A stretch of 64,000 nucleotides of DNA from an archaeon (GTDB lineage Archaea > Nanobdellota > Nanobdellia > Pacearchaeales > GW2011-AR1), in assembly GCA_043810775.1 (NCBI GenBank), contig JBDRNU010000007.1, positions 5,050 to 69,049 of the forward strand. The letters run 5' to 3'. Position numbers and translations under genes: made by a program. This document shows positions 1,994-13,643 of the stretch, one piece after another (position 1 is the first letter of the stretch; each line of letters starts with the position of its first letter). Under the pieces are notes generated by a model, which saw only the letters and a program-made list of their open reading frames with translations, was not told the DNA's origin and made no database searches.

Positions 1994-2154
1994 TTGATTA
2001 TCTATTAACTAACTCCTGTAGGAAGTTAATGCGTTGTGCTGATAAGCACGACAGTTGGCAACCTCCTAAACCGCAAAAATGCGTGTTCATTCTTGCATTT
2101 TTGGGGCACAGAGTAGCGAAACATCAGTGAGCTACTCTGTTGGGTTGATTATCT
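1994..2154. repeat. Exact 10-nt direct repeat TTGATTATCT (1994-2003 and 2145-2154) bracketing a GC-enriched hairpin-rich spacer
   Basis: Both copies read directly from the sequence. The second copy contains the stop codon of the 2149..3156 gene. Confidence 0.6.
2010..2140. ncRNA. Candidate structured RNA or bidirectional terminator module (four consecutive hairpins)
   Basis: Four hairpins: 2010-2016/2021-2028 (loop TGTA), 2033-2040/2045-2052 (loop GATA), 2071-2082/2095-2106 (11 of 12 bp, A5/T5 core) and 2108-2117/2131-2140 (10 bp). By hand count about 48% G+C, against a much more AT-rich surround. Lies between convergent trpS and the KaiC-like gene. Confidence 0.35.
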
Positions 2155-3156
2155 GATTTTTCCGTCAACAGCCACTTTTCCACCAACATGCACTCCTGCT
2201 TTAGTAATTTCAAATGAAAATATTTCAGTTGAATGGTTAGTTCCCCTCATTTTAAGCACCTCAATTAATCTTCTTCTCCTGTTTTTTAGCCTTATAAAAT
2301 AAAGCAGAATAATACTGTCAGCTTCAAACTCCAAGCTTGTTGAAGAGCCCTCTTCCCTATATACTGGGTCTTCTTGCAAAGTCAATAAAGAGGTGCACTC
2401 CCAATTCCTTATTATATCAAATAATTGCAGAGCCGCCTCTCTTTTTGTCAGCTCATCCTTAAAAAGCAAAGCAAAACTAGAAACAGAGTCAATTACAAGT
2501 CTTGTAATTTTATGCTTTAAAATTATGCTTTCTACAGTGCCTCCCCCCTCTTCAAGCATGACTCTTATTTTTTCAGGAGAATACTCTAAAAATACAAATT
2601 TCCCTTCTTTCTCTAGTTTATCCAAGTCCCAGCCAAATTTAAGCATATTCCTAAAGAACTCTTCCTTTTTTTCTTCAAAAGTAATGTACAAGCAATTTTC
2701 ATTATTTTTTATACCTTCAATTAAAAATTGCATTGCAAAAATAGTTTTTCCGCCTCCACTATTTCCCACAACTAGATTCACAGAATTTTCTTCAAATCCT
2801 CCCCCAATAATCCTGTCAAATCCATGAATGCCAGAAGGAACTCTTCGCAATTTAACAGGTTTATTTTCCTTAATTTTTTTCCCAGATTTTTTGCTTTTAA
2901 CCTCTTTTTTAACAGGCCTTTCAGCAAACTTAAAAGCAGTATCAATATCCTTTCCATCCCACTCTTTAGCCAGCAGTGCTTTCTTAATGTCACTCTTGCT
3001 GTAACCTTTAGCTAAAGCATCTTTAATATAAGGGACTAGCTGGTTGTTGCTTCCAGATCCGGAACTTTTTTTCGCTCTTTTTACCCTGGATTTGGAGCTC
3101 TTTTTAGGTTTAGTTTTAGAACTCTTTTTATGAGATTTCTTTTTCCCCTTTTTCAT
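2149..3156 (-). CDS. Single-domain KaiC/RecA-superfamily ATPase, FlaH-like, with lysine-rich N-terminal tail
   Basis: 335 aa. Walker A GNSGGGKT, Walker B-like RLVIDSVS, and KaiC-family C-terminal signature LIEVLKMRGTNHS...FEITKAGV. N-terminus is MKKGKKKSHKKSSKTKPKK... Sits in the type IV filament locus. Confidence 0.8.
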   Translation of the reverse strand: MKKGKKKSHKKSSKTKPKKSSKSRVKRAKKSSGSGSNNQLVPYIKDALAKGYSKSDIKKALLAKEWDGKDIDTAFKFAERPVKKEVKSKKSGKKIKENKPVKLRRVPSGIHGFDRIIGGGFEENSVNLVVGNSGGGKTIFAMQFLIEGIKNNENCLYITFEEKKEEFFRNMLKFGWDLDKLEKEGKFVFLEYSPEKIRVMLEEGGGTVESIILKHKITRLVIDSVSSFALLFKDELTKREAALQLFDIIRNWECTSLLTLQEDPVYREEGSSTSLEFEADSIILLYFIRLKNRRRRLIEVLKMRGTNHSTEIFSFEITKAGVHVGGKVAVDGKIR

Positions 3157-3178
3157 AGTATACTAAAAAAGAATTAGC

Positions 3179-3192
3179 TTATAAACCTTACT
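3179..3192 (-). promoter_or_regulatory. Putative BRE/TATA promoter element (minus strand AGTAAGGTTTATAA) for the KaiC-like gene
   Basis: TATA core centred about 26 nt upstream of ATG 3156, consistent with a leaderless mRNA. An identical 14-mer recurs at 7569-7582. Confidence 0.4.
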
Positions 3193-4198
3193 TTACCATT
3201 GAAAAACTTGAAGCTACAAACTTGAATAAGACAGTTCTTATCATGAAGAATATTGCCAGGCTTAATGCTAGCATTGGCAGCAAATATCTTAAGCCCTCTT
3301 TTTCATCACCTTTATTTACAAGCCCTATTATTAAACTAGCTAGCACATCTGTGATAATCATAAATATTACTGAAAACCAGATAATAAAACTAATTGAAAT
3401 ATCAAGAGCATTAAACTGGAAAGGAGTCTTCACAGAAGTGGCAGCAGTTGTAGCTGTTTCAGGAAAGCTTCCTATTATCTCAATTATTACCTGCACAAGA
3501 ATAGAGCTTAAGCCAAATAATATTGGAGCTCCGATTGAAGCTGCAAAGAAAATAAATATTACATACATCACAATATTTGAAGCAGCTCTTTTCTCAATAA
3601 ACTCTTTTTCACGCATATTGTTTGCGGTTTCTTCAAGCAAAGTGGAAATATTTCCTCCAGCTTTTATTCCAGAAATAATAAGCATAATAGTCTTGTGGAT
3701 TTTTTCTGAACCTATTCTTTTTGACATATCCATCATTGCACTTCCAACATCTTTTCCAGTAGTAACATCTCTTCCAGCTTTGCTCATTTCTTGGTCCAAA
3801 GGGGCAAATTCAGGTCTGGCTGAAAGCAAAAAAGCCCTGTCAATAGTCAAGCCAGCTCTTAAATTACTAGACATAAGCTGCACTACATCTGGAAATATAA
3901 ATTCCATTTTCTTGATTCTTGCGTCAGCTTGCAAGAAAACTTTAAAGTAAAAGAAAACATTTATTAAAATATAACTTACAAAAAAAGTTAAAATTACATT
4001 TATGAATAAGTTTCCCTCAAATACAGCCCTCCCAATAATATCAAGCAAAAATATCAGGCTTGAAATTACTAAAGAAATTAGCAGGCTTCCAACAATTAGG
4101 TTTGACTGGTATCTTTCAGGATTTTCTATTCCAGCTTTTGTGCTAAGACTAAGTAATTTATTCCTAAAGATTCTTGGATAAATTTTAAGAATTTTCAT
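3188..4198 (-). CDS. Type IV filament membrane platform protein, FlaJ/TadC-like half-size paralog 2
   Basis: 336 aa polytopic membrane protein. GspF/FlaJ-like soluble helical domain (LRAGLTIDRAFLLSARPEFAPLDQEMSKAGRDVTTGKDV...GGNISTLLEETA) flanked by TM helices. 4-nt ATGA overlap with the upstream paralog. Confidence 0.65.
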   Translation of the reverse strand: MKILKIYPRIFRNKLLSLSTKAGIENPERYQSNLIVGSLLISLVISSLIFLLDIIGRAVFEGNLFINVILTFFVSYILINVFFYFKVFLQADARIKKMEFIFPDVVQLMSSNLRAGLTIDRAFLLSARPEFAPLDQEMSKAGRDVTTGKDVGSAMMDMSKRIGSEKIHKTIMLIISGIKAGGNISTLLEETANNMREKEFIEKRAASNIVMYVIFIFFAASIGAPILFGLSSILVQVIIEIIGSFPETATTAATSVKTPFQFNALDISISFIIWFSVIFMIITDVLASLIIGLVNKGDEKEGLRYLLPMLALSLAIFFMIRTVLFKFVASSFSMVK

Positions 4199-5088
4199 AA
4201 CAAGCTTGGCCTCCTTGATTTTATAATTCCTAAAAACATTATTTGTATTATCGTAACTATGGCGAGAATACCAATATACATTAATTTCAACATCTTGCTT
4301 TCCATACCCACCATTGATGCAATAATAGTTAGGAATGTCAGCCCCAGTGCCGGAACAATAACCCCTATAAGCAGATAGAACATAACCATGGGATTTAGCT
4401 TGCTTCCATAACTCTGTATTTGTATTGCCTGTTCTTTAGTCATATGGTCAATGCTGTCTTTTATAACCATACTCATGTCACTTCCTGACCTCATTCCATT
4501 GCTTATCTGCCAGACTATTCTTCTAAAATAAACAGAAACATTTTCATTGCCAATTTTATCCAAAACCTCTATTTGTGGCTTTCCAGCACTTATCTCTTTT
4601 ACAGCTTTTTTAAATTCAGAACTTAACTGTCCGTAGTCTGAGCTTGCAATGTTGCTGATTATCTGGAACATTGGAACCCCAGAACTTAGTTGAACCTGAA
4701 TGTCTTGGAGTGAAGGAATAATATTTTTTTCTATGTCTTTAATTTTTTTAAATGAATATATTCTCGGATACATCATTTGGCTTAAAAGTATGAAAAAAGA
4801 AAAAATAATTGCAATGCCTATGCCATAATAATAAAAGTATCTTGTTTTAAGAATAAGAAATAATATAGAAGCGAAAACAGTGGAAAAAATCAAAAAGAAA
4901 ATTACAAAGCTTCTTATAACTAAAGCTATAAATTCCTGTTTATTAAAATCAGATTCAGAATATCTGAGATATTTTTCTAAATTACGAAAAGAGCCTCTTC
5001 TTGCTTTTACAAATCTTAAGTAAGGTTTTGTCTTTCTTCTTAAAATTTCACTGCTTGAGAAAGTATATGGGACTTTAAATTTCTTCAT
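4195..5088 (-). CDS. Type IV filament membrane platform protein, FlaJ/TadB-like half-size paralog 1
   Basis: 297 aa with TM helices flanking a GspF/FlaJ-like soluble domain (LSSGVPMFQIISNIASSDYGQLSSEFKKAVKEISAGKPQIEVL). Immediately downstream of the FlaI-like ATPase gene. Confidence 0.65.
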   Translation of the reverse strand: MKKFKVPYTFSSSEILRRKTKPYLRFVKARRGSFRNLEKYLRYSESDFNKQEFIALVIRSFVIFFLIFSTVFASILFLILKTRYFYYYGIGIAIIFSFFILLSQMMYPRIYSFKKIKDIEKNIIPSLQDIQVQLSSGVPMFQIISNIASSDYGQLSSEFKKAVKEISAGKPQIEVLDKIGNENVSVYFRRIVWQISNGMRSGSDMSMVIKDSIDHMTKEQAIQIQSYGSKLNPMVMFYLLIGVIVPALGLTFLTIIASMVGMESKMLKLMYIGILAIVTIIQIMFLGIIKSRRPSLL

Positions 5089-5100
5089 TTGTTTCTAGGA

Positions 5101-7068
5101 TTATTTTTTCTTTTTTCTTAATTTTGATTTCTTTTTTATTGGAGCAGATTTCACTAAATCTTTATCCTCTTTTATTGAGGTTTTTTCTTCAGTTGTGATC
5201 GGAGACTTGGATTTAATTTCTTCGAATCTGTTGTGTTTAATAATTTCAAAAAGCCTTTCTCGATTAGTATAGTATAGGCTCATAACTTTTCCCATTTCAT
5301 TAAGGCTTCTTATTCTGTTTTTAATAAGCCATTCCAAGATATCTTTTTTCTCTTTAAGATAGCTGTTTATCTCGCTTTGTGACATTCCAGTATGCCTGTT
5401 TAATTCCTCATAAAAAGAAAGGCTTTCGCTATGCTTCAAAATCTGGTCTTTTTCAGGTACATACCTATACAATATATTAGGATTAGCATCATCTTTAGTT
5501 ACAATAAATTCAGCAACCTGAAATACTCTTCTAACCCCTTTTCTTCTGTCTCTGAACATCACTATATTTAAGTTTACTGCTTTCAATAAATTAACAGGCA
5601 CGTTTATTGGTGGATGAGTAAGCCTATTTATAGTTTCTCCAGCAGTATCTGCATGTACAGTTGCATAAACTGAATGTCCGGTATGCATTGCCTCAAATAA
5701 TACTTCAGCCTCTTTCTGCCTTCTCATTTCTCCAAGAACTATCCTGTCAGGCCTCATTCTCAAGCTATTTACAAGAAGATCTAGCATAGAAACCTCTCCT
5801 TTGCCTTCTGGATTAGGGGTTCTCGTAACAAGAGGGCACCAGTATAAGAAATTAGGGAGCATTAGCTCACGAGTATCCTCAATGCTGATAATCCTGTGGT
5901 TTGGTGGAATAAAAGGCATGCACGCATTTAAAAATACTGTTTTTCCTGAAGCAGTTCCTCCAGAAATTAGGACATTCATCTCATACTCCACTGCAAGCCA
6001 TAATAATGCAGCTACATCAAGACTTACTGTACTATTCATAATTAAATCAATCATAGTCCAAGGGTCTCGTGCAAATTTTCTCAATGTAATTGTATTTCCT
6101 TTTGTGGCTATTGGATACAATACAGCATTTGCTCTGTCCCCAGTAACTATGTGGGCATCAAGAAGTGGTGAAAGTATGTTAATCTGCCTCCCAACTCTTC
6201 TTGCAATAATATTTGCATAATTATTTATCTCTTCTTCTCTTCGTATTCTTACATTACTTGAAAGCCATCCATATTTTTTGTGATAAACTCTAATTGGTTC
6301 AGTTTCACTTACAACTACTATTTCCTCCAAATTAGGGTCATTAATTAAGAATTCCATTTTACCTAATCCAAGCATTTCCTGCATCAGAGTGCCAATAAGA
6401 AAATCTTTGGTTTTATCCTCAATATGCGGGACTTTATCTGTAATAATTTTTGATGCCTCTTCCATAAATCTTTTCTTCATCTTAATAATTGCTTCCTGGT
6501 CCACTGTCTCCCCAATCGCAATTGCAGTAACTGCTACAAGCTCATTCCTTATATCATCAAGCAAGGCCCTTGTACCAATTTCAATTGTTGGCATGTAAAG
6601 ATTATAGCTTAGTCCTTCCAATCCCCTCTCAATACTAATAGTAATATTAGCTTTGTCAACTGAAACATTATAGGTTTCAACTACATCTTTCCTAACTACC
6701 TTCTCAACAACTGCTTTTTTCTTCAGTAGCTTTTTAGGTACTCCCAATTTTTTTACTTTAGAGTTTTCAGCTGAATCGCCAACTAGCTTAAATGCATCTT
6801 CAATTTCTTTAGAAGGCCACCCCCTTTCTAAAAGAGCTCTCCTCAAGTTTTCTTTTTTATAACCCTGTTTAAGAGCTTTTCTTAAATGTGGGATTAAATT
6901 AGCTGCATGACTAGACACACTTTTACTTTTTTTTGCCCTTACTTTTCTTACTGAGCTTTTTTTCACTCTTTTCGGCTTTACTGTCTTTGCTCTTTTCTGG
7001 CTCTTTTTCTTTAACCTCTTTTTCTGCAGCTTTTTCATCTTCATCCTCTTTTTCTTCTTTTTCTTCAT
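5101..7068 (-). CDS. FlaI/TadA/VirB11-family type IV filament assembly ATPase with lysine-rich N-terminal extension
   Basis: 655 aa. Walker A SGGTASGKT, Asp box IISIEDTREL, Walker B RPDRIVLGEMR, His box TGHSVYATVHA. N-terminal MKKKKKKRMKMKK... tail. The 5' 146 nt overlap the upstream ORF. Confidence 0.9.
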   Translation of the reverse strand: MKKKKKKRMKMKKLQKKRLKKKSQKRAKTVKPKRVKKSSVRKVRAKKSKSVSSHAANLIPHLRKALKQGYKKENLRRALLERGWPSKEIEDAFKLVGDSAENSKVKKLGVPKKLLKKKAVVEKVVRKDVVETYNVSVDKANITISIERGLEGLSYNLYMPTIEIGTRALLDDIRNELVAVTAIAIGETVDQEAIIKMKKRFMEEASKIITDKVPHIEDKTKDFLIGTLMQEMLGLGKMEFLINDPNLEEIVVVSETEPIRVYHKKYGWLSSNVRIRREEEINNYANIIARRVGRQINILSPLLDAHIVTGDRANAVLYPIATKGNTITLRKFARDPWTMIDLIMNSTVSLDVAALLWLAVEYEMNVLISGGTASGKTVFLNACMPFIPPNHRIISIEDTRELMLPNFLYWCPLVTRTPNPEGKGEVSMLDLLVNSLRMRPDRIVLGEMRRQKEAEVLFEAMHTGHSVYATVHADTAGETINRLTHPPINVPVNLLKAVNLNIVMFRDRRKGVRRVFQVAEFIVTKDDANPNILYRYVPEKDQILKHSESLSFYEELNRHTGMSQSEINSYLKEKKDILEWLIKNRIRSLNEMGKVMSLYYTNRERLFEIIKHNRFEEIKSKSPITTEEKTSIKEDKDLVKSAPIKKKSKLRKKKK

Positions 7069-7531
7069 ATAATTCTACCTCTGGTTCCGAAAACGCAGGG
7101 TAATTTATCAATGCAAGATTATGATCTTCAAGTATTCTCATCCACTCAAGTGCCCTTTCCCTGTCAATATTAAAAATTTCAGCTACAACAGAAACTCTTA
7201 ATTTTTTACCATCTTTTAACAAGCTGTAAAGAAGGTCAATATCTGTTCCTGCCTTGCCTTTTCTTTTTTCAAGACTAGAATAACTTATTTGTATTTTTTC
7301 AGTTTTAGTTTTTTTAAGATGCCTGACATAAGCAAAATAAACAATAAGGAGAATTATTAACCATTGTGCTATAAATGCAATTTTTGAAAAATCAAGCGCA
7401 CCCTCAAAATCTTCACCAATTGCAAGTCCAGTAAATGAAAAAGCACCTGTCAAATATAAAAAAATATTTATGACAGCTAATAGAATCACTATTCCAATCA
7501 CAATCACAAATCCCCTTTTTTCTCCTTCCAT
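6923..7531 (-). CDS. Membrane protein with C-terminal winged-helix-like domain and acidic/lysine tail (first gene of the ATPase operon)
   Basis: 202 aa. Two N-terminal hydrophobic helices. wHTH-like segment (DIDLLYSLLKDGKKLRVSVVAEIFNIDRERALEWMRILEDHNL). E/K-rich tail. Confidence 0.6.
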   Translation of the reverse strand: MEGEKRGFVIVIGIVILLAVINIFLYLTGAFSFTGLAIGEDFEGALDFSKIAFIAQWLIILLIVYFAYVRHLKKTKTEKIQISYSSLEKRKGKAGTDIDLLYSLLKDGKKLRVSVVAEIFNIDRERALEWMRILEDHNLALINYPAFSEPEVELYEEKEEKEDEDEKAAEKEVKEKEPEKSKDSKAEKSEKKLSKKSKGKKK

Positions 7532-7568
7532 TTTGATAATGTTTATAAACTTATTATCATATCTAATT

Positions 7569-7582
7569 TTATAAACCTTACT
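7569..7582. promoter_or_regulatory. Second copy of the 14-mer TTATAAACCTTACT in the 72-bp divergent promoter region of the filament locus
   Basis: Exact match to 3179-3192. Contains the palindromic TATA core TTTATAAA. Lies between the divergent starts 7531 (-) and 7604 (+). Confidence 0.4.
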
Positions 7583-7603
7583 GTATAAAAAGAGGAGTAT
7601 TCC

Positions 7604-8017: not shown

Positions 8018-8018
8018 T

Positions 8019-8408
8019 ATGGAACTGTCAAAAAAATCCCAAACTGCTATTGAGTTTATGATTGTTTTAGGTTCAGCTTTATTTTTTTTTACACTAATTT
8101 TTTTAGTAATTAATGAGAACATTGCTGATAAAAATCGTGAGAAAGAAACAATAATTGTTTCAAATCTTGCCAAATCTGTGCAGGATGAAATAAATCTTGC
8201 TTCAGAAGCAAGCAATGGATACTATCGGGAGTTTTTTATTGCTGATAATATAATTGGCAAGGATTATTTAATTAGTGTAATTGAAAGCAGGATAATTATT
8301 AAAACAGATAAAAATGCAATTTCACTGCCTGTTCAAAATGTGACAGGATTTATACAAAAAGGTTCAAATACTATAAGAAAAGAGGATGGAATCGTGTATC
8401 TTAACTAG
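8019..8408 (+). CDS. Pilin-like protein with class III signal peptide
   Basis: MELSKKSQTAIEFMIVLGSALFFFTLIFLVI. Starts 1 nt after the upstream stop. Confidence 0.7.
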   Translation: MELSKKSQTAIEFMIVLGSALFFFTLIFLVINENIADKNREKETIIVSNLAKSVQDEINLASEASNGYYREFFIADNIIGKDYLISVIESRIIIKTDKNAISLPVQNVTGFIQKGSNTIRKEDGIVYLN

Positions 8409-8880
8409 AAAAGCCCAGGTCTGGAGTATAGACTTAGCAATAGCTATTGTAATTTTTTTAATTGGAATTACAATGATGTATTTTTATGCTCTTAACTACA
8501 CTCAGGAGACAGAAGACAAGCTGGAAGTTCTGTTTTATGATGGAAATAATGTCGGAGAAATCTTGCTTTCTCCTGGCTATCCAGAAGACTGGACTGTATC
8601 TGATGTAGTAACCCCTGGGATTCTTTCAGAAAATAAAATAAATCAGACAAAGCTTGATAATTTTAATTCGCTGAATTATGATGAGATTCAGCGCCGTCTA
8701 AATACTAATTATGAGCTCTTCTTTAACTTTTCAGAGCCAATGTACATTTCAGGAGCATATCAGAAAGGAATAGGCCGTGACCCTCTTGATTATTCACCTC
8801 GGGATATAGTAAAAGTTTCTCGATTTACAATTTACCAAAATAAACCTGTAAGGATAGATATTTTTATTTGGGATGATTAA
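8386..8880 (+). CDS. Pilin-like protein with class III signal peptide
   Basis: MESCILTRKAQVWSIDLAIAIVIFLIGITMMYF. Overlaps the upstream gene by 23 nt. Confidence 0.6.
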   Translation: MESCILTRKAQVWSIDLAIAIVIFLIGITMMYFYALNYTQETEDKLEVLFYDGNNVGEILLSPGYPEDWTVSDVVTPGILSENKINQTKLDNFNSLNYDEIQRRLNTNYELFFNFSEPMYISGAYQKGIGRDPLDYSPRDIVKVSRFTIYQNKPVRIDIFIWDD

Positions 8881-11800
8881 AATGAGGAAAAAAGGATATT
8901 ATTTTAGCATTGATGCTTTAATTGCATTAATTATAATTTTTACAGTTATTGTTACAGTCAGGCCTCCAATCAGGCAGGTTACTTCAGATATGTACCTTCA
9001 GGAAGACCTCTTGCTAGTTTTAACTAGCTTAAAAATAGGGGAAATAAATGAAACTGCTTATCCTTATGTGTATAATGACTGGATTCCTAATAATTATGTC
9101 ACTAATCAAAATCTGACTTTGTTAGACCAAATAGGGGCATTTTACTCTTATGATGATGGCCTTCCTGGCTCAAGGTCAAATAAGCTTACTCAAGATATCA
9201 TAAATCATCTGGGCGCAAAAGATAAAATTGGATTATGGTTTGATAATAGGATGATAGCTAATTCCTCTATTTATAATAATACTTACCAGGTCTGGACTTC
9301 TCGCCAGCTAATATCTGGAATTCAAAATGGAACAAATGTCACTGGTTTTACTGCTACTGCTTCCCTAAGTTCTACAAGCAGGCAGAGTTATTATTACTTT
9401 GGAGGTTATGTTGGTGATGGAATTATTAAAAAGAAAGTGGAATATCAGGGTAGCATTAAGAATGCATCTATAGAAGGAGAGCTTGTTGGAACATTTGACC
9501 TTTCAGTAATTAATTCAGCAGGAGTTGAAACTCCAGCAGGAACTTATACTGGTAGTGCAGGACAGATAACTAAAATAAATATTGAACCAGCCCAAAACTA
9601 TTTCACTCCTGGGGTGAATTATGTCAAATTTAATTCAAATGATTTTTATATTTCAGGAGGATTTGTAAAATTATCTTACGAAAATGTAACTTCTCCTTTT
9701 TCAAGATATAAAAGATATAATTTCCCGGGAATCCAAGGAGTAATAAATCTTTATGATAGCTTTTATGTTCCAGGTACTTTAAATTATATGAGTATTTACT
9801 TAAATTATTCAAGTAATTATACAGCATTTTTAAATCTTGGAAATATCACAATTGTAAATCAAACTAATACTTTTAATACACCAATCAGTTTATCTAATTC
9901 TGACTTGCTTTCACTGGGGTTAAATTATAATTCTCTTACTAATGAGACAATTCCGCTAAGGTTTGGCTTGTGGAATGTTTCTTACTCTTCATCTTCAAAA
10001 TCAAATGCAGATGTATTCTCAGTAACTGACTTAAGCGGAAGTATGGATGGTTCTAAAATTTCTGCTGCTAAAAGTGCTAATAAGGCACTTATTAGTGCAA
10101 TACTTAATGAAAGTATACCTGATAATGAAAATCGTTTAGGATTAGTAGGATATGAGTATTCAGCATCACAAGATGATTTTCACCCTCTCACGAAAAACAA
10201 TAATTCTTTAATAAATAAAGTAAACCAATGGGTTGCTGAAGGATACACATGTATTTGTTGTGGTATAAATAAAGTAATTGGAAACTTTATTGGAAAAGAG
10301 GAAATATATTACAATTTTGATGACAATGTCAATGATCAGTCAGGAAACGGAAATGACGCAGCAATTGTTGGCAGTCCTTCATATGTTTCAGGAGTGGATA
10401 ATACTGCTTTAAAATTTGATGGTGTTGATGACTATGTAAATGCCCATGATGATAATCTTTATTATACGCGCTCTGGAGCAATCTCATTCTGGTTTAAGCT
10501 CGAAAGTGATTTTGACAGGTATTCAGCAACAACTCAACCAATTTGGGGAAAATATATGAATAACAATAATAATGCCTTTATTGTCTTGCGGGGAAATGAT
10601 TTAACCAGTGCTGGTAGGTCAGGTGCAATCCTGGCAAAAATGGAAATGGCAGGGGAAGGGGGTGGTGATGATTATGCTTATTCAAATAGAAGAACATGGG
10701 ATGCTGATACTTGGTATCATTTAGCATTTGTATGGAATAGTAATACTATGCAAATTTATATAAATGGCGTCTTAGACAGAAGCACTTCTGGTGGGCAGGA
10801 TATAGGTTTTACTGGAGATAATGAAATTGGAAGAGTTAGCTTTGATTCCAGTGATATCAGCGGTCAGAGATATTTAGATGGCACAATTGATGAATTCAGG
10901 ATGCATAATCGTGCTTTAAATCTTACAGAAATTCAACAACTTGCAAATAATGTTCCTGTCTGTGGTGATAATCGCATTCAAGTAGGAGAGGTTTGCGATG
11001 GAAACTTTTTAGGATGCAATTCAGGAAGTGAAGTTGGAACTAAAAACTGCAGTTCTGATTGCATTTCTTATAATACTTGCGCAACTGAAAACAAGCACAG
11101 GACAATGATTGTAATGAGTGATGGTCTTGCTAATCGTGTTTGTGGAAATACTGCTTTGGATTATGATGGTGACAGCGATACTACTGAAGACCCCCAAGAC
11201 CAGGCAATAGATGCAGCTTGTGATGCATTTAAAAACTACAGTATAACTGTCCACGCTGTTGCTTTTGGTTCAGATGCAGATGATGACACCTTGCAGCTAA
11301 TAGCTCAATGTGGAAACGGAAGCTTTAGCTCAGGGACAGTTGAAGATATTGTAGATGTTTATATGCAGTTAGCTCGTTATATTCTTGAAGCAACTTTTCA
11401 AGAGCAAAGAATAGTAACTACTGGGGGGATTAACACTACTTTAGACCCAAGCTCGTATATTATTTTTAATTATTCTGCACCCTCAGTTTCAACCGGATTA
11501 TTGCTAAATATTGAAACTAATGAGTTTAATAATAATATAGCTGAAGGAAACTTTAGTGTTCCTGAAGACGCTGAATTATTAGAAGCAAATCTCATATCTT
11601 ATTCAAGAAGCTGGTGGACCTCAAATGTCTCAATTTTTAATACAAACTGGAAAAAAGTTTTTAATCTAGCTGACTATGGCTCTGATTATCTGCAGCTTGG
11701 CGACCCTTATGTTATAAATATTCCCATTGATTTAGCTGAGAATGGAGAAAATAAAGTTAGAGTTCAGTTAGGGTTATCTCCAACAAACTATACTGGTGGT

Positions 11801-12157
11801 TCTAATAAGAGTAAAATAATCTATACTATATTAAAAGAGCGTACTTCATTTTCCCCAATTAAACCAAAAGCAGACGGATGTATCTGGATTTTAAAATTTA
11901 ATGATGGGCAGGAATCTTCTATAAAAGTTCCACAGTACTATACTGGAACTCGCCTGTGCTATTATAATGAATCAGTCTACAACACTAATGATGCAATAGA
12001 TGAAGCTACTTATGCTTTACTAGAAAAAATGGATATTAATTCAGACGGAATAATAGATACTAAATTTACAGAGCAGGACTTGGAAGTTACAACCAATAGG
12101 CTAAAAGGAGTGCCATTTGCCTGGTCTACTGAAGCTCAGGTGAGAGTGTGGAGGTAA
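8873..12157 (+). CDS. Giant pilin-like adhesin candidate: class III signal peptide + vWA domain interrupted by LamG-like and Cys-rich modules
   Basis: 1094 aa. N-terminus MRKKGYYFSIDALIALIIIFTVIV. vWA MIDAS DLSGS at 10028-10042, with the matching distal vWA strand MIVMSDGLAN near 11105-11130. In between: LamG/ConA-like signature (GNGNDAAIVGSPSYVSGVDNTALKFDGVDDYV...TIDEFRMHNRALNLTEIQQL, about 10313-10942) and a Cys-rich repeat (CGDNRIQVGEVCDGNFLGCNSG...C, about 10960-11080). Confidence 0.75.
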   Translation: MIKMRKKGYYFSIDALIALIIIFTVIVTVRPPIRQVTSDMYLQEDLLLVLTSLKIGEINETAYPYVYNDWIPNNYVTNQNLTLLDQIGAFYSYDDGLPGSRSNKLTQDIINHLGAKDKIGLWFDNRMIANSSIYNNTYQVWTSRQLISGIQNGTNVTGFTATASLSSTSRQSYYYFGGYVGDGIIKKKVEYQGSIKNASIEGELVGTFDLSVINSAGVETPAGTYTGSAGQITKINIEPAQNYFTPGVNYVKFNSNDFYISGGFVKLSYENVTSPFSRYKRYNFPGIQGVINLYDSFYVPGTLNYMSIYLNYSSNYTAFLNLGNITIVNQTNTFNTPISLSNSDLLSLGLNYNSLTNETIPLRFGLWNVSYSSSSKSNADVFSVTDLSGSMDGSKISAAKSANKALISAILNESIPDNENRLGLVGYEYSASQDDFHPLTKNNNSLINKVNQWVAEGYTCICCGINKVIGNFIGKEEIYYNFDDNVNDQSGNGNDAAIVGSPSYVSGVDNTALKFDGVDDYVNAHDDNLYYTRSGAISFWFKLESDFDRYSATTQPIWGKYMNNNNNAFIVLRGNDLTSAGRSGAILAKMEMAGEGGGDDYAYSNRRTWDADTWYHLAFVWNSNTMQIYINGVLDRSTSGGQDIGFTGDNEIGRVSFDSSDISGQRYLDGTIDEFRMHNRALNLTEIQQLANNVPVCGDNRIQVGEVCDGNFLGCNSGSEVGTKNCSSDCISYNTCATENKHRTMIVMSDGLANRVCGNTALDYDGDSDTTEDPQDQAIDAACDAFKNYSITVHAVAFGSDADDDTLQLIAQCGNGSFSSGTVEDIVDVYMQLARYILEATFQEQRIVTTGGINTTLDPSSYIIFNYSAPSVSTGLLLNIETNEFNNNIAEGNFSVPEDAELLEANLISYSRSWWTSNVSIFNTNWKKVFNLADYGSDYLQLGDPYVINIPIDLAENGENKVRVQLGLSPTNYTGGSNKSKIIYTILKERTSFSPIKPKADGCIWILKFNDGQESSIKVPQYYTGTRLCYYNESVYNTNDAIDEATYALLEKMDINSDGIIDTKFTEQDLEVTTNRLKGVPFAWSTEAQVRVWR

Positions 12158-12158
12158 A

Positions 12159-13103
12159 ATGAATTCAAAAGCCCAGATGTTTACAATGTTTGCAATATCA
12201 ATTCTTATTCTGCTTTTTGTATCTTATAGTGTCTATACTTTAGCCCAGGATAGAAAGGCAATAAAAATAAGAGTCACTACTATGGATAGTTTTCTTTCAT
12301 CCATAGAGCAAGATCTCGAAAGGCAGCTGTATATTTATGGTTTTAGATCACTAATCATAGCTGAAGATTATGTTTCAACAAAAGGAGAGTATATTCCTGA
12401 TGTAAATGAATTTTTCAATCTAACTTTTTACAATGAAACAGTTTACGAAAAAAATTATACTGAACTAATTTCAGGCGCAAACTATCCTTATATCCTTTCA
12501 AAAATTAACAAAGCCTCTTCAAAAATAAATGTTGAAATCTTGCTGACTGATATAAATATTTCTGTGGCTCAGGAAGATCCCTGGCACGTGGTTGTTATTT
12601 TCCAGGCAAACCTGACAATGCGCGATAAAGCTGGCCTTGCATACTGGAATAAGACAGAAGTGATAAAATCCTATATTCCTATTGAAGGATTTGGAGAGCC
12701 TGTTTATATAGTCAAGACAAAATCATTTTTATTAGATAAGTCAAAAATAAATAAAACTTTATATGATGGGAATTACAACTCTGCAGGAGATCGCTCCAAT
12801 CTTACCAGTCATGTTATTTATGGCCTTTATGCAGAAAATCCAGATGCCCCTAGTTACTTGCAGAGATTAGAGGGGAAAATTTCAGATTCAAGCCCAAATG
12901 GAATTGAGAGATTATTATATATTCCAGATTTGAGCTTGTATGAAGACCAGGGTGTTCAAGTTTTTGACGGAAAAAGTGTTGTTGACCATGTTTATTTTTC
13001 TTCAGGGTTTACAGGTGGCTCTCAAATTTCAGGAACAGGAATTCCTGCTGGTTGGAGTTGGTTTATTATTGACTCAAATCATGACGATGAAAAGTATACT
13101 TAA
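12159..13103 (+). CDS. Pilin-like protein with class III signal peptide
   Basis: MNSKAQMFTMFAISILILLFVSYSVY. Starts 1 nt after the upstream stop. Confidence 0.6.
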   Translation: MNSKAQMFTMFAISILILLFVSYSVYTLAQDRKAIKIRVTTMDSFLSSIEQDLERQLYIYGFRSLIIAEDYVSTKGEYIPDVNEFFNLTFYNETVYEKNYTELISGANYPYILSKINKASSKINVEILLTDINISVAQEDPWHVVVIFQANLTMRDKAGLAYWNKTEVIKSYIPIEGFGEPVYIVKTKSFLLDKSKINKTLYDGNYNSAGDRSNLTSHVIYGLYAENPDAPSYLQRLEGKISDSSPNGIERLLYIPDLSLYEDQGVQVFDGKSVVDHVYFSSGFTGGSQISGTGIPAGWSWFIIDSNHDDEKYT

Positions 13104-13121
13104 TTATAATTCAGCGATACA

Positions 13122-13129
13122 TTTATAAA
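13122..13129 (+). promoter_or_regulatory. TATA-box-like TTTATAAA upstream of the major-pilin candidate
   Basis: About 50 nt upstream of ATG 13179. This leaves a short leader carrying the GGAGGT ribosome-binding site. Confidence 0.35.
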
Positions 13130-13167
13130 GTCCACATTCAAAATAATATTATATACTGATTAAAAAA

Positions 13168-13173
13168 GGAGGT
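13168..13173 (+). promoter_or_regulatory. Strong Shine-Dalgarno sequence GGAGGT
   Basis: AAAAGGAGGTAAAAAATG; 5-nt spacer to ATG 13179. Confidence 0.6.
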
Positions 13174-13178
13174 AAAAA

Positions 13179-13643
13179 ATGATAATGTCTAAAAAAGGAC
13201 AGGCAGCAATGGAATTTTTGATGACCTATGGTTGGGCCATTCTGGCAGCTATAGTAGTAATTGCAGTGCTTGCATGGTTTGGTGTATTTAATCTTGGAAA
13301 TCTCGCACCTAGTGCTTGTGTAATTTCTGCGCCTTTTAGCTGTGAAGAATACGGAATAACTGAAACATCAGGAATTCAGCTAGTTGTAAGAAATGGATAT
13401 GGTAATACTGTTGATATTGCAAGTATTGATGTTATGGGTTGTGGTTCTGAAGATAATAGTGCAGCAGGATGGATTGTACAAGATGGGCAGCTTGTTAGTG
13501 GAACAACTTTGACAATTACATGCGGAACAGCATTAACAGCAGGTGAACTTTTCAGAGGAGATATAAATATCACTTACATGAAATCTGGTGGTTCAATTTC
13601 ACAAACAGCATCTGGTTCAATCAAAGGCGAAGTAGCACCTTAA
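13179..13643 (+). CDS. Major pilin candidate (class III signal peptide, small secreted globular domain)
   Basis: MIMSKKGQAAMEFLMTYGWAILAAIVVIAVLAWF. 154 aa. Has its own TATA box and strong SD, and is followed by oligo-T tracts. Confidence 0.7.
   Translation: MIMSKKGQAAMEFLMTYGWAILAAIVVIAVLAWFGVFNLGNLAPSACVISAPFSCEEYGITETSGIQLVVRNGYGNTVDIASIDVMGCGSEDNSAAGWIVQDGQLVSGTTLTITCGTALTAGELFRGDINITYMKSGGSISQTASGSIKGEVAP

What the first reader, a model, noticed from the sequence alone, without database searches (positions are those of the whole stretch)
2149..13643. Divergent two-operon type IV filament locus with archaellum-style motor core (FlaH/FlaI/FlaJ-like) but pilin-type subunits
The minus-strand operon (7531 down to 3188) encodes a membrane/wHTH protein, a FlaI/TadA-family ATPase with all four signature boxes, and two half-size platform proteins. 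A KaiC/FlaH-like ATPase follows with its own promoter-like element.

The plus-strand operon (7604 to 13643) encodes six consecutive proteins. All of them start with a basic stretch, a small residue plus Q/Y, and a ~20-aa hydrophobic helix: KRSQSSVEYLIVIG, KKSQTAIEFMIVLG, RKAQVWSIDLAIAI, KKGYYFSIDALIAL, SKAQMFTMFAISIL, KKGQAAMEFLMTYG. These are class III prepilin-type signal peptides.

A FlaH-like KaiC ATPase is characteristic of archaellum motors. Here, however, there is no archaellin, no FlaF/G and no FlaX/CDE. No prepilin peptidase is present in the window. The combination looks like an under-described filament class in a small-genome archaeon. It could be relevant to host attachment.
Basis: partly seen in the sequence, partly recalled or inferred. 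Interest (0 to 1): 0.65.

Follow-up and report, generated by a model that had tools for sequence, protein, structure and literature searches.

The report
DPANN archaeal type IV pilus locus
An 11-gene cluster in a small-genome (DPANN) archaeon encodes a complete type IV pilus: a motor ATPase, a split membrane platform, a KaiC-type ATPase, a membrane-anchored winged-helix protein and six pilin-like subunits including a giant adhesin. It is conserved across many related uncultured archaea and most likely serves attachment, not archaellum-style swimming.

Summary
All 11 ORFs exist at the stated coordinates and carry the stated domains, and six consecutive proteins have class III (prepilin) signal peptides. 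These signals are conserved family by family in relatives.

The whole locus recurs in Woesearchaeota/Pacearchaeota/Nanoarchaeota genomes. All 11 families are present in 25 of 80 sampled loci. A KaiC-like gene lies within 10 kb in 51 of 64 informative loci.

The "archaellum-style motor" reading is not supported:
- The KaiC-like protein is a catalytically intact KaiC-family ATPase, not FlaH/ArlH (56 bits against a cut-off of 215).
- The ATPase fails the FlaI model (279 against 550) and forms its own clade outside FlaI.
- The platform is split into two genes, as in Tad/Epd systems.
- There are no archaellins and no FlaF/G.

The pilins carry the +1 Gln/+5 Glu signature of Methanococcus Epd pilins. 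The modelled major pilin resembles solved archaeal type IV pilins. The 1094-aa pilin carries a VWA domain with an invariant MIDAS motif and a lineage-variable lectin insert.

Best reading: an adhesive type IV pilus with a KaiC-type regulator. KaiC–pilus linkage and conserved DPANN pilus loci are already published. This is therefore a well-dissected member of a known but uncharacterised kind, of moderate interest.

The parts
2149..3156 (-). KaiC-family single-domain ATPase (335 aa). It has a Lys-rich tail, a 45-aa N-terminal module (aa 36-82) and a RecA-like KaiC domain (aa 106-325).
   Evidence: Pfam KaiC 9.5e-60. It is closest in the PDB to KaiC CI, PH0186 and PH0284, and far from FlaH. Walker A K137, E161/E162 and D223 are conserved in 53-54 of 54 family members. 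A KaiC-like gene follows the platform gene directly in 37 of 64 related loci.
3178..3185 (-). TATA-like box (TTTATAAG), 22 nt upstream of the KaiC start codon.
   Evidence: Read from the sequence. It is one base off TTTATAAA, an octamer found 20 times in the window against 9.4 expected.
3188..4198 (-). Platform protein 2 (336 aa, TadC-like, one T2SSF domain).
   Evidence: Pfam T2SSF 1.5e-15. It has 5-6 hydrophobic helices. It weakly matches the C-terminal half of the ArlJ model, 21 bits against a cut-off of 400.
4195..5088 (-). Platform protein 1 (297 aa, TadB-like, one T2SSF domain). It overlaps the next gene by 4 nt.
   Evidence: Pfam T2SSF 4.1e-15. It is 21% identical to platform protein 2, E 3e-7. 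The pair is present in 74 of 80 loci.
5101..7068 (-). Secretion-superfamily assembly ATPase (655 aa as the longest ORF; NCBI aa). It has a Lys-rich tail, the shared 45-aa module (aa 54-100), an N-terminal domain, the ATPase core and a C-terminal helical domain.
   Evidence: Pfam T2SSE 2.3e-33. NCBIfam FlaI 279 bits against a cut-off of 550. PDB matches: afGspE2 233 bits, FlaI 194, CpaF 164. Thousands of DPANN homologues are 60-79% identical.
6923..7531 (-). Membrane-anchored protein (202 aa). It has two N-terminal membrane helices, a conserved cytoplasmic winged-helix-like domain of about 65 aa (aa ~92-152, nt 7076-7258) and a charged tail.
   Evidence: Hydropathy. The domain is the only part shared by all 75 family members. 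It gives sub-threshold matches to many winged-helix families: MarR in 12 of 42 members, TrmB in 9 of 42. It lies directly upstream of the ATPase gene in 70 of 80 loci.
7532..7603 (.). A 72-bp divergent promoter region with two palindromic TATA boxes (TTTATAAA at 7542-7549 and 7568-7575) and a GAGGAG element before the first pilin gene.
7604..8017 (+). Pilin-like protein 1 (137 aa). Predicted cleavage KRS|QSSVEY (+1 Gln, +5 Glu, +6 Tyr).
   Evidence: The motif [KR][GAS]|Q.[SG].EY is conserved in 54 homologues. The family occurs in 56 of 80 loci.
8019..8408 (+). Pilin-like protein 2 (129 aa). Predicted cleavage KKS|QTAIEF (+1 Gln, +5 Glu).
   Evidence: The motif is conserved in 46 homologues.
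8386..8880 (+). Pilin-like protein 3 (164 aa). Predicted cleavage RKA|QVWSID.
   Evidence: The motif K[GA]|Q[AV]W..D is conserved in 49 homologues. The gene travels together with the next two genes when loci are rearranged.
8873..12157 (+). Giant modular pilin-like adhesin (1094 aa). Predicted cleavage KKG|YYFSIDA. Its VWA domain (aa 380-473 and 774-817) is interrupted by a LamG/concanavalin-like lectin domain (aa 516-688) and a Cys-rich stretch.
   Evidence: Pfam Laminin_G_3 5.5e-22, VWA 4.7e-7, VWA_3. The MIDAS residues D386/S388/S390 are invariant or nearly invariant in 37 homologues. VWA is found in 25 of 37 members, LamG in only 4 of 37, and BNR or sialidase-type carbohydrate-binding domains in others.
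12159..13103 (+). Pilin-like protein 5 (314 aa). Predicted cleavage SKA|QMFTMF.
   Evidence: The motif K[GAS]|[QIM].FT is conserved in 35 homologues.
13122..13129 (+). TATA box (TTTATAAA) for the last pilin gene. GGAGGT lies 6 nt before its ATG, and oligo-T tracts follow its stop codon.
13179..13643 (+). Predicted major pilin (154 aa). Predicted cleavage KKG|QAAMEFLMTYGWAIL. It has an N-terminal helix and a beta-sandwich with conserved cysteines.
   Evidence: The N-terminus is invariant in 42 and 119 homologues. The search found 2315 relatives, some named 'UPF0333 family' by JGI. It is often duplicated in relatives. The AlphaFold2 model has pLDDT 89.9. The best PDB fold matches are Pyrobaculum type IV pilins 8FK7 and 6W8U.

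Best explanation
The locus encodes a self-contained adhesive type IV pilus of a DPANN (Nanoarchaeia: Woese-/Pacearchaeota-type) archaeon.

Shown:
- A divergent promoter region separates a machinery operon from a pilin operon.
- The machinery operon encodes a membrane-anchored winged-helix protein, the assembly ATPase and two half-size platform proteins, followed by a KaiC-family ATPase behind its own TATA-like box.
- The pilin operon encodes six class III signal proteins.

Inferred mechanism:
- A prepilin peptidase encoded elsewhere cuts after [KR]-[G/A/S]. This leaves Gln (or Tyr in the giant pilin) at position +1, as in the EppA-processed pilins of Methanococcus.
- The hexameric ATPase docks on the heterodimeric platform and drives extraction of pilins from the membrane into a filament.
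- The body of the filament is the 154-aa last gene product. That gene has its own promoter, a strong ribosome-binding site and an invariant N-terminus, and is often multi-copy in relatives.
- Proteins 3, 4 and 5 always move as a block. They probably prime assembly and sit at the tip, presenting the VWA-MIDAS and lectin modules of the 1094-aa pilin to a partner cell or surface. The lectin insert differs between lineages, which fits differing targets.
- The KaiC-family ATPase keeps all catalytic residues. It most likely forms a ring that tunes the assembly ATPase or relays a signal to it. This is functionally analogous to ArlH-ArlI in the archaellum, but it is not orthologous.
- The winged-helix membrane protein is either a scaffold that holds the cytoplasmic ATPases at the platform or a membrane-tethered regulator of the divergent promoter.
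For: - Domain content and motifs.
- The whole 11-family set, and only that set, is conserved around the ATPase in 80 genomes whose ATPases are 53-70% identical to the query. Gene order is the same or shows block-wise rearrangement.
- Class III motifs are conserved within each pilin family.
- The +1 Gln/+5 Glu pair matches the experimentally defined Epd pilin signature.
- The major pilin model has pLDDT 89.9 and is closest to solved archaeal type IV pilins.
- The giant pilin has an invariant MIDAS and a variable lectin or carbohydrate-binding insert. This parallels the tip-located modular pilins PilB (VWA) and PilC (lectin) of Streptococcus sanguinis.
- KaiC catalytic residues are conserved in 53-54 of 54 members.
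- KaiC stays linked to pilus genes even where the locus is rearranged, for example in L023, L025 and L040.
- KaiC-pilus linkage is established in other archaea.
- Pili linking ultrasmall, likely CPR/DPANN cells to hosts have been imaged.
Against: - No prepilin peptidase lies in the window or in the conserved neighbourhood, so processing is inferred.
- The Pfam class III signal model is not reached: 8.3 bits against a cut-off of 23.7.
- There is no expression, filament or binding data for any member.
- Which pilin is the major one is inferred from gene organisation only.
- The KaiC-ATPase interaction is by analogy. No KaiC-ATPase gene fusions were found in the nine long relatives examined.
- 13 of 64 loci show no KaiC gene within the DNA retrieved.
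- The model of the winged-helix protein was poor, pLDDT 54.
Confidence: 0.75

Rival explanations
1. It is a reduced or divergent archaellum, a rotary swimming filament. The FlaH/FlaI/FlaJ-like core would turn a filament made of unusual subunits. This is how KEGG-style annotation labels these genes in Woesearchaeota studies ('flaH, flaI, flaJ: motility').
For: The FlaI model is the best-scoring NCBIfam model for the ATPase at 279 bits. JGI names many homologues 'flagellar protein FlaI'. A RecA/KaiC-superfamily ATPase is adjacent, as FlaH is in archaella. A Woesearchaeota study reports flaB/H/I/J/K genes in most genomes and high 'archaellin' expression.
Against: - All three core proteins fail the curated archaellum models: FlaI 279/550, ArlH 56/215, ArlJ 21/400.
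- The ATPase clade excludes FlaI in 100 of 100 bootstraps.
- The KaiC-like protein scores 20-27 bits against the two solved FlaH structures and 115 bits against a single KaiC CI domain.
- The platform is split into two genes.
- There is no archaellin, FlaF, FlaG, FlaX or FlaCDE match.
- One subunit is a 1094-aa VWA/lectin adhesin.
Confidence: 0.05
2. The machine does not build a long adhesive pilus. Instead it builds a short pseudopilus used for surface display, secretion or DNA uptake, like the Sulfolobus bindosome, bacterial type II secretion or competence pili.
For: The same core parts serve all these functions. DPANN archaea depend on importing DNA and nutrients, and authors have speculated about DNA uptake via pili. 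[quoted passage not shown]
Against: - The bindosome ATPase model scores only 140 bits against a cut-off of 1000.
- No substrate-binding proteins with class III signals are present.
- No DNA-binding or channel component was recognised among the conserved neighbours.
- A dedicated, highly conserved and often duplicated 150-aa pilin with its own promoter fits an abundant filament subunit.
- The VWA-MIDAS plus lectin modules point to adhesion.
Confidence: 0.12
3. The KaiC-like gene is a general signalling ATPase that merely neighbours the pilus genes and has no mechanistic role in the machine.
For: It has its own TATA-like box. 13 of 64 loci lack it within the DNA retrieved, and in 14 it lies kilobases away. 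KaiC-like ATPases are proposed as general signalling hubs in archaea (reference list seen).
Against: - It is adjacent to the platform gene in 37 of 64 loci and within 10 kb in 51 of 64, across genomes whose ATPases are 53-70% identical to the query.
- After rearrangements it stays next to pilin genes.
- In this genome it shares a 45-aa N-terminal module with the assembly ATPase: 43% identity, E 1e-14.
Confidence: 0.12

Closest known systems
Conserved type IV pilus loci of 'cluster 2' DPANN archaea (Hamm et al. 2024, PMC11291902; also Makarova et al. 2019, PMC6393860; Nanohaloarchaeota clusters with kaiC, PMC9563170)
   Same: The lineages match (Woese-, Pace- and Nanoarchaeota). The loci hold a CpaF-type ATPase, TadC platform genes, an adjacent membrane or coiled-coil protein, unannotated signal-peptide proteins taken to be pilins and, in some clusters, kaiC genes.
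   Different: Those reports give only outlines. The following were not found in the passages of those reports that were read: the six-family pilin set, the VWA/lectin modular pilin, the winged-helix domain as the universal part of the upstream protein, and KaiC as a near-constant member. Identity of their 'coiled-coil protein' with the protein at 6923-7531 is likely but was not tested.
Epd pili of Methanococcus maripaludis (Makarova 'clade 1' type IV pili)
   Same: - The pilins have short signal peptides, +1 Gln and +5 Glu.
- There are many minor pilins of 130-300 aa.
- There are two TadC-like platform genes.
- JGI labels relatives of the major pilin 'UPF0333'.
- A Methanocaldococcus 'CpaF family' ATPase is among the nearest named relatives outside DPANN: 44% core identity, against 38-39% for FlaI and afGspE2.
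   Different: - The major pilin is 154 aa, not about 70 aa.
- There is no EppA peptidase and no FleN/MinD ATPase in the locus. A KaiC-family ATPase and a winged-helix membrane protein are present instead.
- All genes lie in one locus.
- In a tree rooted on CpaF the ATPase does not group with the Methanocaldococcus protein (0 of 100 bootstraps).
- The Pfam DUF361/Class_IIIsignal cut-off is not reached.
Euryarchaeal 'clade 2' pili (Haloferax PilB3/PilB4 loci; Archaeoglobus GspE2, PDB 2OAP)
   Same: - KaiC-family ATPases are often in the same operons, and there are often two tadC genes.
- afGspE2 is the best PDB match and aligns through the C-terminal helical domain.
- About a fifth of close homologues carry a PilB3_C Pfam hit.
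- The ATPase groups with afGspE2+FlaI rather than with clade-1-type proteins in 98 of 100 neighbour-joining bootstraps.
   Different: - Core identity to afGspE2 is only 39%.
- afGspE2 pairs with FlaI to the exclusion of this clade in 100 of 100 bootstraps.
- The pilins are not of the PilA (DUF1628) type. A separate ORF at 20435-20881 looks more like that type.
Archaellum (ArlB/F/G/H/I/J plus X or CDE)
   Same: It uses the same superfamily of ATPase and platform. A RecA-superfamily ATPase lies next to the motor genes, and the subunits carry class III signals.
   Different: It fails all curated archaellum models. It has no archaellins and no ArlF/G/X/CDE, its platform is split, its KaiC protein is catalytically intact (E161/E162, D223 conserved) and far closer to KaiC than to FlaH, and it carries an adhesin pilin.
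Bacterial Tad/Flp pilus
   Same: It has a CpaF-like ATPase (164 bits to CpaF structures) and separate TadB-like and TadC-like platform genes. Pilin 1 has the +5 Glu/+6 Tyr pair of Flp pilins.
   Different: The TadA model scores 178 bits against a cut-off of 373. The pilins are 2-3 times longer than Flp. There is no secretin, TadZ/CpaE or TadV in the locus.
Modular tip pilins PilB (VWA) and PilC (lectin) of Streptococcus sanguinis
   Same: A class III signal and pilin helix are grafted onto a VWA module with a MIDAS, or onto a concanavalin-like lectin module. Both are proposed to sit at the pilus tip and mediate adhesion.
   Different: Here both modules are in one 1094-aa archaeal protein. The lectin is inserted inside the VWA domain and is replaced by other carbohydrate-binding modules in relatives. 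No sequence relationship beyond the domains is implied.

Membership tests
Type IV filament superfamily | Secretion-superfamily ATPase with Walker A, Asp box, Walker B and His box | tested here: met
   Pfam T2SSE 2.3e-33. The motifs were read in the alignment to afGspE2, FlaI and CpaF.
Type IV filament superfamily | Polytopic platform protein(s) of the T2SSF/PilC/TadC family | tested here: met
   Two genes, each with one T2SSF domain (1.5e-15 and 4.1e-15) and 4-6 hydrophobic helices.
Type IV filament superfamily | Subunits with class III signal peptides and an N-terminal hydrophobic helix | tested here: met
   Six consecutive ORFs carry them. The motifs are conserved in 35-54 homologues per family. 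The model of the last one gives a helix at aa 6-33 plus a beta-sandwich, and its top PDB matches are archaeal type IV pilins. The Pfam Class_IIIsignal HMM itself is sub-threshold.
Type IV filament superfamily | Dedicated prepilin peptidase (A24 family) | tested here: not met
   None is apparent in the window: only the two platform proteins have three or more membrane helices. None appears among the conserved neighbours. The rest of the genome could not be examined.
Archaellum | ArlI/FlaI orthologue | tested here: not met
   NF058587 scores 278.7 bits against a cut-off of 550. The clade excludes FlaI in 100 of 100 bootstraps.
Archaellum | ArlH/FlaH orthologue | tested here: not met
   NF052589 scores 55.8 bits against a cut-off of 215. 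FlaH structures score 26.6 and 20 bits, against 115 for KaiC CI and 112 for PH0186.
Archaellum | Single double-domain ArlJ/FlaJ | tested here: not met
   There are two separate single-domain genes. The ArlJ model scores 20.9 bits against a cut-off of 400 for one and gives no hit for the other.
Archaellum | Archaellins (ArlB) and ArlF/ArlG | tested here: not met
   None of the six proteins matches an archaellin/ArlF/ArlG family in Pfam or NCBIfam.
Archaellum | ArlX or ArlCDE scaffold | tested here: not met
   No family match. A membrane-anchored protein, with coiled coils in some relatives, occupies the position next to the ATPase. It shows no detectable homology to these scaffolds.
Epd pilus (Makarova clade 1) | Pilins with +1 Gln and +5 Glu processed by EppA | tested here: met
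   +1 Gln and +5 Glu are present in proteins 1, 2 and 6. +1 Gln alone is present in proteins 3 and 5. Protein 4 has Tyr at +1. The signature is as defined. Processing itself was not tested.
Epd pilus (Makarova clade 1) | Pfam DUF361/Class_IIIsignal (PF04021) match | tested here: not met
   8.3 bits against a cut-off of 23.7. 17 of 42 relatives match only at E up to 10.
Epd pilus (Makarova clade 1) | ATPase inside clade 1 | tested here: inconclusive
   Core identity is highest to a Methanocaldococcus non-FlaI ATPase and its relatives (44-47%). A neighbour-joining tree rooted on CpaF never groups them. That the Methanocaldococcus protein is clade 1 is itself inferred.
Epd pilus (Makarova clade 1) | EppA (9-helix peptidase) and FleN/MinD ATPase in or near the locus; major pilin of about 70 aa | tested here: not met
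   Neither gene family is seen in the window locus or in the conserved neighbourhood. The predicted major pilin is 154 aa.
Euryarchaeal clade 2 pili (PilB3/PilB4 type) | ATPase inside clade 2 | tested here: inconclusive
   afGspE2 is the best PDB hit, but it pairs with FlaI and excludes this clade. PilB3_C hits occur in a minority of relatives and not in the window protein at E up to 0.1.
Euryarchaeal clade 2 pili (PilB3/PilB4 type) | Frequent KaiC-family gene and two tadC genes in the locus | tested here: met
   The features are as described.
Bacterial Tad pilus | TadA/CpaF orthologue, Flp pilin, secretin, TadZ | tested here: not met
   TIGR03819 scores 178 bits against a cut-off of 373. The pilins are 129-1094 aa. 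No secretin or TadZ family is found.
KaiC family (RecA superfamily) | KaiC domain with Walker A Lys, paired catalytic Glu and Walker B Asp | tested here: met
   Pfam PF06745 scores 202 bits against a cut-off of 26.6. K137, E161, E162 and D223 are conserved in 53-54 of 54 members.
KaiC family (RecA superfamily) | Circadian-type double domain (CI+CII) with KaiB/KaiA partners | tested here: not met
   It has a single domain. The circadian KaiC models score 161/408 and 111/546. No KaiA or KaiB was found among the ORFs scanned, but not every window ORF was scanned.

The most novel reading that the evidence does not exclude
Nanoarchaeia (Woese-/Pacearchaeota) carry their own ancient lineage of type IV pilus. 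Its ATPase is monophyletic and lies outside the archaellum clade and both non-archaellum archaeal reference types tested: Archaeoglobus GspE2, and Methanocaldococcus, inferred clade 1. A catalytically active KaiC-family ring and a membrane-anchored winged-helix protein have become core motor or regulatory parts, independently of the archaellum's ArlH and ArlX. The tip adhesin swaps lectin modules to set host specificity. This would make it the main host-attachment organelle of the largest DPANN radiation.
Probability: 0.3. Interest if true: 0.65.

Novelty: new member of a known kind. Interest (0 to 1): 0.4.

Why it matters
DPANN archaea make up a large share of archaeal diversity. Those cultivated so far live attached to other cells, yet the molecules that make contact are unknown.

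This locus is among the most conserved surface systems in Woese-/Pacearchaeota. The ATPase is 60-79% identical across its best 120 of more than 7,700 metagenomic homologues. It is routinely mislabelled as 'flagellar motility' in metabolic reconstructions, and correcting that changes ecological inferences from swimming to attachment.

The analysis yields concrete candidates for experiments:
- a predicted major pilin suitable for antibodies or cryo-EM;
- a VWA-MIDAS/lectin tip adhesin whose variable insert may track host range;
- a KaiC-type ATPase that could show how archaeal pili other than the archaellum are regulated.

Tried and rejected
1. Clade assignment of the ATPase. No Epd, Ups, Aap or PilB3 reference sequences could be fetched. 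I rebuilt afGspE2, FlaI and CpaF from PDB alignments and added a Methanocaldococcus 'CpaF family' protein found by the exhaustive search. Identity and the neighbour-joining tree disagree. I therefore dropped my first idea, 'clade 2, PilB3-like', and claim only a separate clade.
2. PilB3_C as a marker. It occurs in scattered relatives and in more distant ATPases and does not discriminate.
3. A search for KaiC-ATPase fusions among long homologues. Nine long relatives showed tandem ATPases or unannotated N-terminal extensions, and four others carried inteins. No KaiC fusions were found.
4. Structure of the winged-helix membrane protein. Only 5 homologues passed the word filter, and the model had pLDDT 54. 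It was not used for fold search. A profile search against PDB sequences gave only marginal winged-helix hits.
5. Recovering the rest of the source contig to look for the peptidase. Exact-sequence look-ups found nothing.
6. The KaiC paper of Makarova et al. 2017 is not held in the library.
7. No solved structure matches the platform proteins by sequence.
8. I considered whether the membrane protein's N-terminus (EKRG|FVIVIG) is a seventh class III signal. It has a second membrane helix and a cytoplasmic domain, and the N-termini of its relatives are variable. I treat it as an ordinary anchor.

Full report
**1. Observation**

On the minus strand, running down from 7531:
- a 202-aa protein with two N-terminal hydrophobic helices;
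- a 655-aa ATPase;
- two polytopic proteins of 297 and 336 aa;
- after a 31-nt gap, a 335-aa protein.

Pfam assigns T2SSE to the ATPase (2.3e-33), one T2SSF domain to each polytopic protein (4.1e-15 and 1.5e-15) and KaiC to the last protein (9.5e-60). The two platform proteins are distant paralogues, 21% identical with E 3e-7. Walker A, Asp box, Walker B and His box can all be read in the ATPase.

On the plus strand, six tightly packed ORFs (7604-13643) all begin with a short basic stretch, then G/A/S, then Gln or Tyr, then about 20 hydrophobic residues. A crude scan for that pattern flags 9 of the window's 68 ORFs, and six of them are these consecutive genes.

TTTATAAA occurs 20 times in the window against 9.4 expected, mostly just upstream of ORFs, so it behaves as this genome's TATA box. 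Two copies lie in the 72-bp divergent intergenic region and one lies upstream of the last pilin gene. A one-off variant (TTTATAAG) sits 22 nt before the KaiC start.

Only the two platform proteins have three or more predicted membrane helices. No prepilin peptidase is therefore apparent in the window.

**2. Organism and conservation**

The window has 33% G+C. The ATPase is identical over 95% of its length to a protein from an NCBI 'MAG: archaeon' contig of 70 kb. Its best 120 of more than 7,700 homologues are 60-79% identical, and the named ones come from Woesearchaeota, Pacearchaeota or Nanoarchaeota.

A scan of one genome per GTDB species found 547 stretches encoding a relative, and I took the best 80 loci. 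Searching their ORFs with the eleven window proteins shows the same architecture again and again: pilins 6-5-4-3-2-1 divergent from membrane protein-ATPase-platform 1-platform 2-KaiC.

An unsupervised clustering of all ORFs in these loci finds only these families conserved:

| Family | Loci (of 80) |
|---|---|
| ATPase | 78 |
| Platform pair | 74 |
| Membrane protein | 70 |
| Pilin 1 | 56 |
| KaiC | 53 |
| Pilin 3 | 52 |
| Pilin 2 | 45 |
| Pilin 6 | 38 |
| Pilin 4 | 37 |
| Pilin 5 | 34 |

The next most frequent family occurs in 12 loci. Twenty-five loci hold all eleven families.

Of 64 loci with enough DNA after platform 2, 37 have KaiC immediately downstream, 14 more have it within 10 kb, and 13 show none. 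When loci are rearranged, pilins 3-4-5(-6) move as a block, often together with KaiC, while pilins 1-2 stay next to the promoter. This is a real, selected gene set.

**3. The pilins**

Each family keeps its own cleavage-site motif across 35-54 homologues:
- pilin 1: [KR][GAS]|Q.[SG].EY
- pilin 2: K[GAS]|Q.A.EF
- pilin 3: K[GA]|Q[AV]W..D
- pilin 4: [KR][GA]|[YIV][FY]FS.DA
- pilin 5: K[GAS]|[QIM].FT
- pilin 6: KKG|QAAMEFLMTYGWAIL, invariant from Q8 to A20 in 42 sequences and nearly so in 119

The pairing of +1 Gln with +5 Glu is the signature of Methanococcus maripaludis Epd pilins, where +1 Gln appears essential for cleavage by EppA. The +5 Glu is absent from Sulfolobus and Haloferax pilins. 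JGI labels several pilin 6 relatives 'UPF0333 family'. The Pfam Class_IIIsignal model is nevertheless not reached, at 8.3 bits against 23.7.

An AlphaFold2 model of pilin 6 built on 119 homologues is confident (pLDDT 89.9). It shows a helix at aa 6-33 followed by a beta-sandwich. Its two best matches in the PDB are the Pyrobaculum calidifontis and P. arsenaticum type IV pilins (E 9e-4 and 1.6e-3, probability 1.00). The TM-scores are low (0.32-0.35), as expected when a long helix and a globular domain are superposed together.

Pilin 6 has its own TATA box, a GGAGGT ribosome-binding site and oligo-T tracts after the stop codon. It is duplicated or triplicated in several relatives. I infer that it is the major subunit.

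Pilin 4 (1094 aa) has a VWA domain whose N-terminal part (aa 380-473) and C-terminal part (aa 774-817) are separated by a LamG/concanavalin-like domain (aa 516-688, 5.5e-22). In 37 homologues the MIDAS residues D386/S388/S390 are invariant or nearly so. VWA is detected in 25 of 37, but LamG in only 4. Others carry BNR or sialidase-type carbohydrate-binding modules. The protein is thus a modular pilin with a constant metal-dependent adhesion site and an exchangeable lectin. This is the logic shown experimentally for the tip pilins PilB (VWA) and PilC (lectin) of Streptococcus sanguinis.

**4. The KaiC-like protein is not FlaH**

| Comparison | Score |
|---|---|
| NCBIfam ArlH model | 55.8 bits (cut-off 215) |
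| NCBIfam archaeal KaiC-domain models | 150, 114 and 109 bits |
| PDB, isolated KaiC CI domain | 115 bits |
| PDB, Pyrococcus PH0186 | 112 bits |
| PDB, Pyrococcus PH0284 | 97 bits |
| PDB, SSO2452 | 78 bits |
| PDB, FlaH (4YDS, 4WIA) | 26.6 and 20 bits |

Walker A Lys137, the paired glutamates E161/E162 and Walker B Asp223 are conserved in 53-54 of 54 family members. An active ATPase is therefore likely.

Makarova et al. (2016) already reported that KaiC-family ATPases are encoded in or next to operons of the archaellum, of clade 2 pili and of subclade 4B pili, and proposed them as regulators. A Nanohaloarchaeota study noted pilus clusters with two kaiC genes. A KaiC neighbour is therefore not an archaellum hallmark.

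**5. The ATPase**

The FlaI model is the best-scoring NCBIfam model but falls far below its cut-off (279/550). TadA scores 178/373 and bindosome BasE 140/1000. In the PDB, Archaeoglobus GspE2 is best (233 bits, aligned through the C-terminal helical domain), then FlaI (194), then CpaF (164).

An exhaustive search of 1.8 billion cluster representatives found 21,518 relatives. The nearest named ones outside Nanoarchaeia are Iainarchaeum 'CpaF family' proteins and a Methanocaldococcus lauensis 'CpaF family protein'. The Methanocaldococcus protein is not a FlaI (276/550). Methanococci are reported to have only clade 1 and archaellum ATPases, so it is probably Epd-type; this is inference.

Mean identity of the Nanoarchaeia ATPases to each reference, over 287 ungapped columns:

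| Reference | Identity |
|---|---|
| Unnamed relative (P0334) | 47% |
| Methanocaldococcus protein | 44% |
| Iainarchaeum protein | 44% |
| afGspE2 | 39% |
| FlaI | 38.5% |
| CpaF | 36% |

Neighbour-joining bootstraps rooted on CpaF give a different picture. The Nanoarchaeia are monophyletic in 100 of 100 replicates. The afGspE2+FlaI group excludes them in 100 of 100. They join that group rather than the Methanocaldococcus group in 98 of 100.

The method is crude and long-branch effects are possible. I therefore conclude only that this is a distinct clade that is not nested in FlaI or in afGspE2-type ATPases. The archaellum label is not supported either.

**6. The membrane protein**

The only part shared by all 75 family members is a domain of about 65 aa just before the C-terminal tail. 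Its consensus is TDLD.LY.LL.EKK.L..S.IAK.F.I.K..A.EW.KILE...LA.I.YPAFGEPEL. Individual members give sub-threshold hits to many winged-helix families: MarR in 12 of 42, TrmB in 9, PCI in 9.

Upstream of this domain, relatives have two to six membrane helices and, in some cases, coiled coils. This probably corresponds to the 'coiled-coil proteins' drawn next to CpaF/TadC in DPANN loci by Hamm et al. 2024, though that was not tested. The structure model was too poor to use.

Two functions remain open. It may be a scaffold tethering the cytoplasmic ATPases; its topology (membrane anchor, coiled coil in some relatives, then a cytoplasmic domain) recalls my recollection of ArlX, which was not checked here. 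Or it may be a membrane-tethered regulator of the adjacent divergent promoter.

**7. A shared module**

In this genome the KaiC-like protein (aa 36-82) and the ATPase (aa 54-100) carry the same 45-aa module behind Lys-rich tails. They are 43% identical over 67 aa, E 1e-14. The module matches no Pfam family. It occurs sporadically in relatives, including twice in one membrane-protein homologue. This hints that the three cytoplasmic components use a common docking element. It remains unexplained.

**8. Synthesis**

The locus is a complete type IV pilus system apart from the peptidase. Its parts combine features known from different archaeal pilus groups:
- Epd-type pilin signals;
- a split platform, as in Tad, clade 1 and clade 2 systems;
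- a KaiC-family ATPase, as in clade 2 and 4B systems;
- a modular adhesin.

This agrees with the modular evolution described for archaeal pili. The most likely function is attachment to surfaces or partner cells. That fits images of pili linking ultrasmall, likely CPR/DPANN cells to hosts and the proposal of conserved pilus loci in cluster 2 DPANN. Literature that lists flaH/flaI/flaJ 'motility' genes in most Woesearchaeota genomes is probably describing this locus under a misleading name.

**9. Novelty and score**

The kind of system is known, and the presence of such loci in these lineages has been published in outline. New here are:
- the demonstration that the full 11-family set is conserved;
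- the pilin inventory and its Epd-like signature;
- the VWA adhesin with a variable insert;
- the separation of the KaiC protein from FlaH;
- the distinct ATPase clade.

I rate the locus a new member of a known kind, with interest 0.4. There is a 0.3 chance that a proper phylogeny and experiments would establish it as a separate DPANN pilus lineage with KaiC as a core component.

Noticed in passing
window 20435-20881 (-): A seventh pilin-like ORF (148 aa) lies outside the locus. It has a different class III type, 'MNKKG|VSEIVTVILIILLSITAVIII', with no +1 Gln or +5 Glu. It gives a sub-threshold match to the archaellin/type IV pilin N-terminal model (13.6 bits against 20). Two signal types in one genome may mean two peptidase specificities, as in Methanococcus.
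   Followed up: partly
window 2911-3051 (-) and 6769-6909 (-): The KaiC-like protein and the assembly ATPase share a 45-aa N-terminal module (43% identity over 67 aa, E 1e-14), each behind a Lys-rich tail. The module has no Pfam family. It is sporadic in relatives and is present twice in one homologue of the membrane protein (L067).
   Followed up: partly
homologues of window 5101-7068 (P0248, P0249, P0255, P0276 and many others): Many relatives' ATPases are 1000-1400 aa because an intein is inserted near query residue ~399. The intein has Intein_splicing and LAGLIDADG domains, and some copies add HTH_3. The window copy is intein-free.
   Followed up: yes
window 47209-48108 (-): A free-standing LAGLIDADG homing-endonuclease-like ORF (299 aa).
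   Followed up: no
window 57692-57823 (+): Rfam finds a 132-nt tRNA match (54.7 bits) that ARAGORN did not report. It is most likely an intron-containing archaeal tRNA.
   Followed up: no
window-wide; e.g. 827, 7542, 7568, 13122, 22715, 36746, 40957, 55063, 59151, 60184: The palindromic octamer TTTATAAA occurs 20 times against 9.4 expected, mostly a few tens of bases upstream of ORF starts. It behaves as this genome's TATA box.
   Followed up: partly
window 7604-8017 (+) and homologues: The pilin 1 family has +5 Glu and +6 Tyr (Q.[SG].EY), the 'EY' pair typical of bacterial Flp pilins. Pilins 2 and 6 have EF.
   Followed up: no
loci L035, L050, L051, L056, L063, L069, L070, L076, L077: A second, more divergent KaiC-like paralogue (83-115 bits to the window protein) lies in these loci, in most of them in tandem with the main one. 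This recalls the 'two kaiC' pilus clusters reported in Nanohaloarchaeota.
   Followed up: partly
window 6923-7068: The acidic/basic C-terminal tail of the membrane protein and the Lys-rich N-terminus of the ATPase are encoded by the same 146 nt in different frames. NCBI starts the ATPase 34 codons later, which still leaves an overlap.
   Followed up: no
window 23336-25030 (+), 61553-62476 (-), 27333-28784 (-): Three other ORFs were noted. One is a 564-aa HATPase_c_3 (MORC-like) protein next to small ORFs. One is a zincin protease (Matrixin/Astacin motifs) with a hydrophobic N-terminus and a CARDB domain. One is a B12-binding radical SAM enzyme.
   Followed up: no
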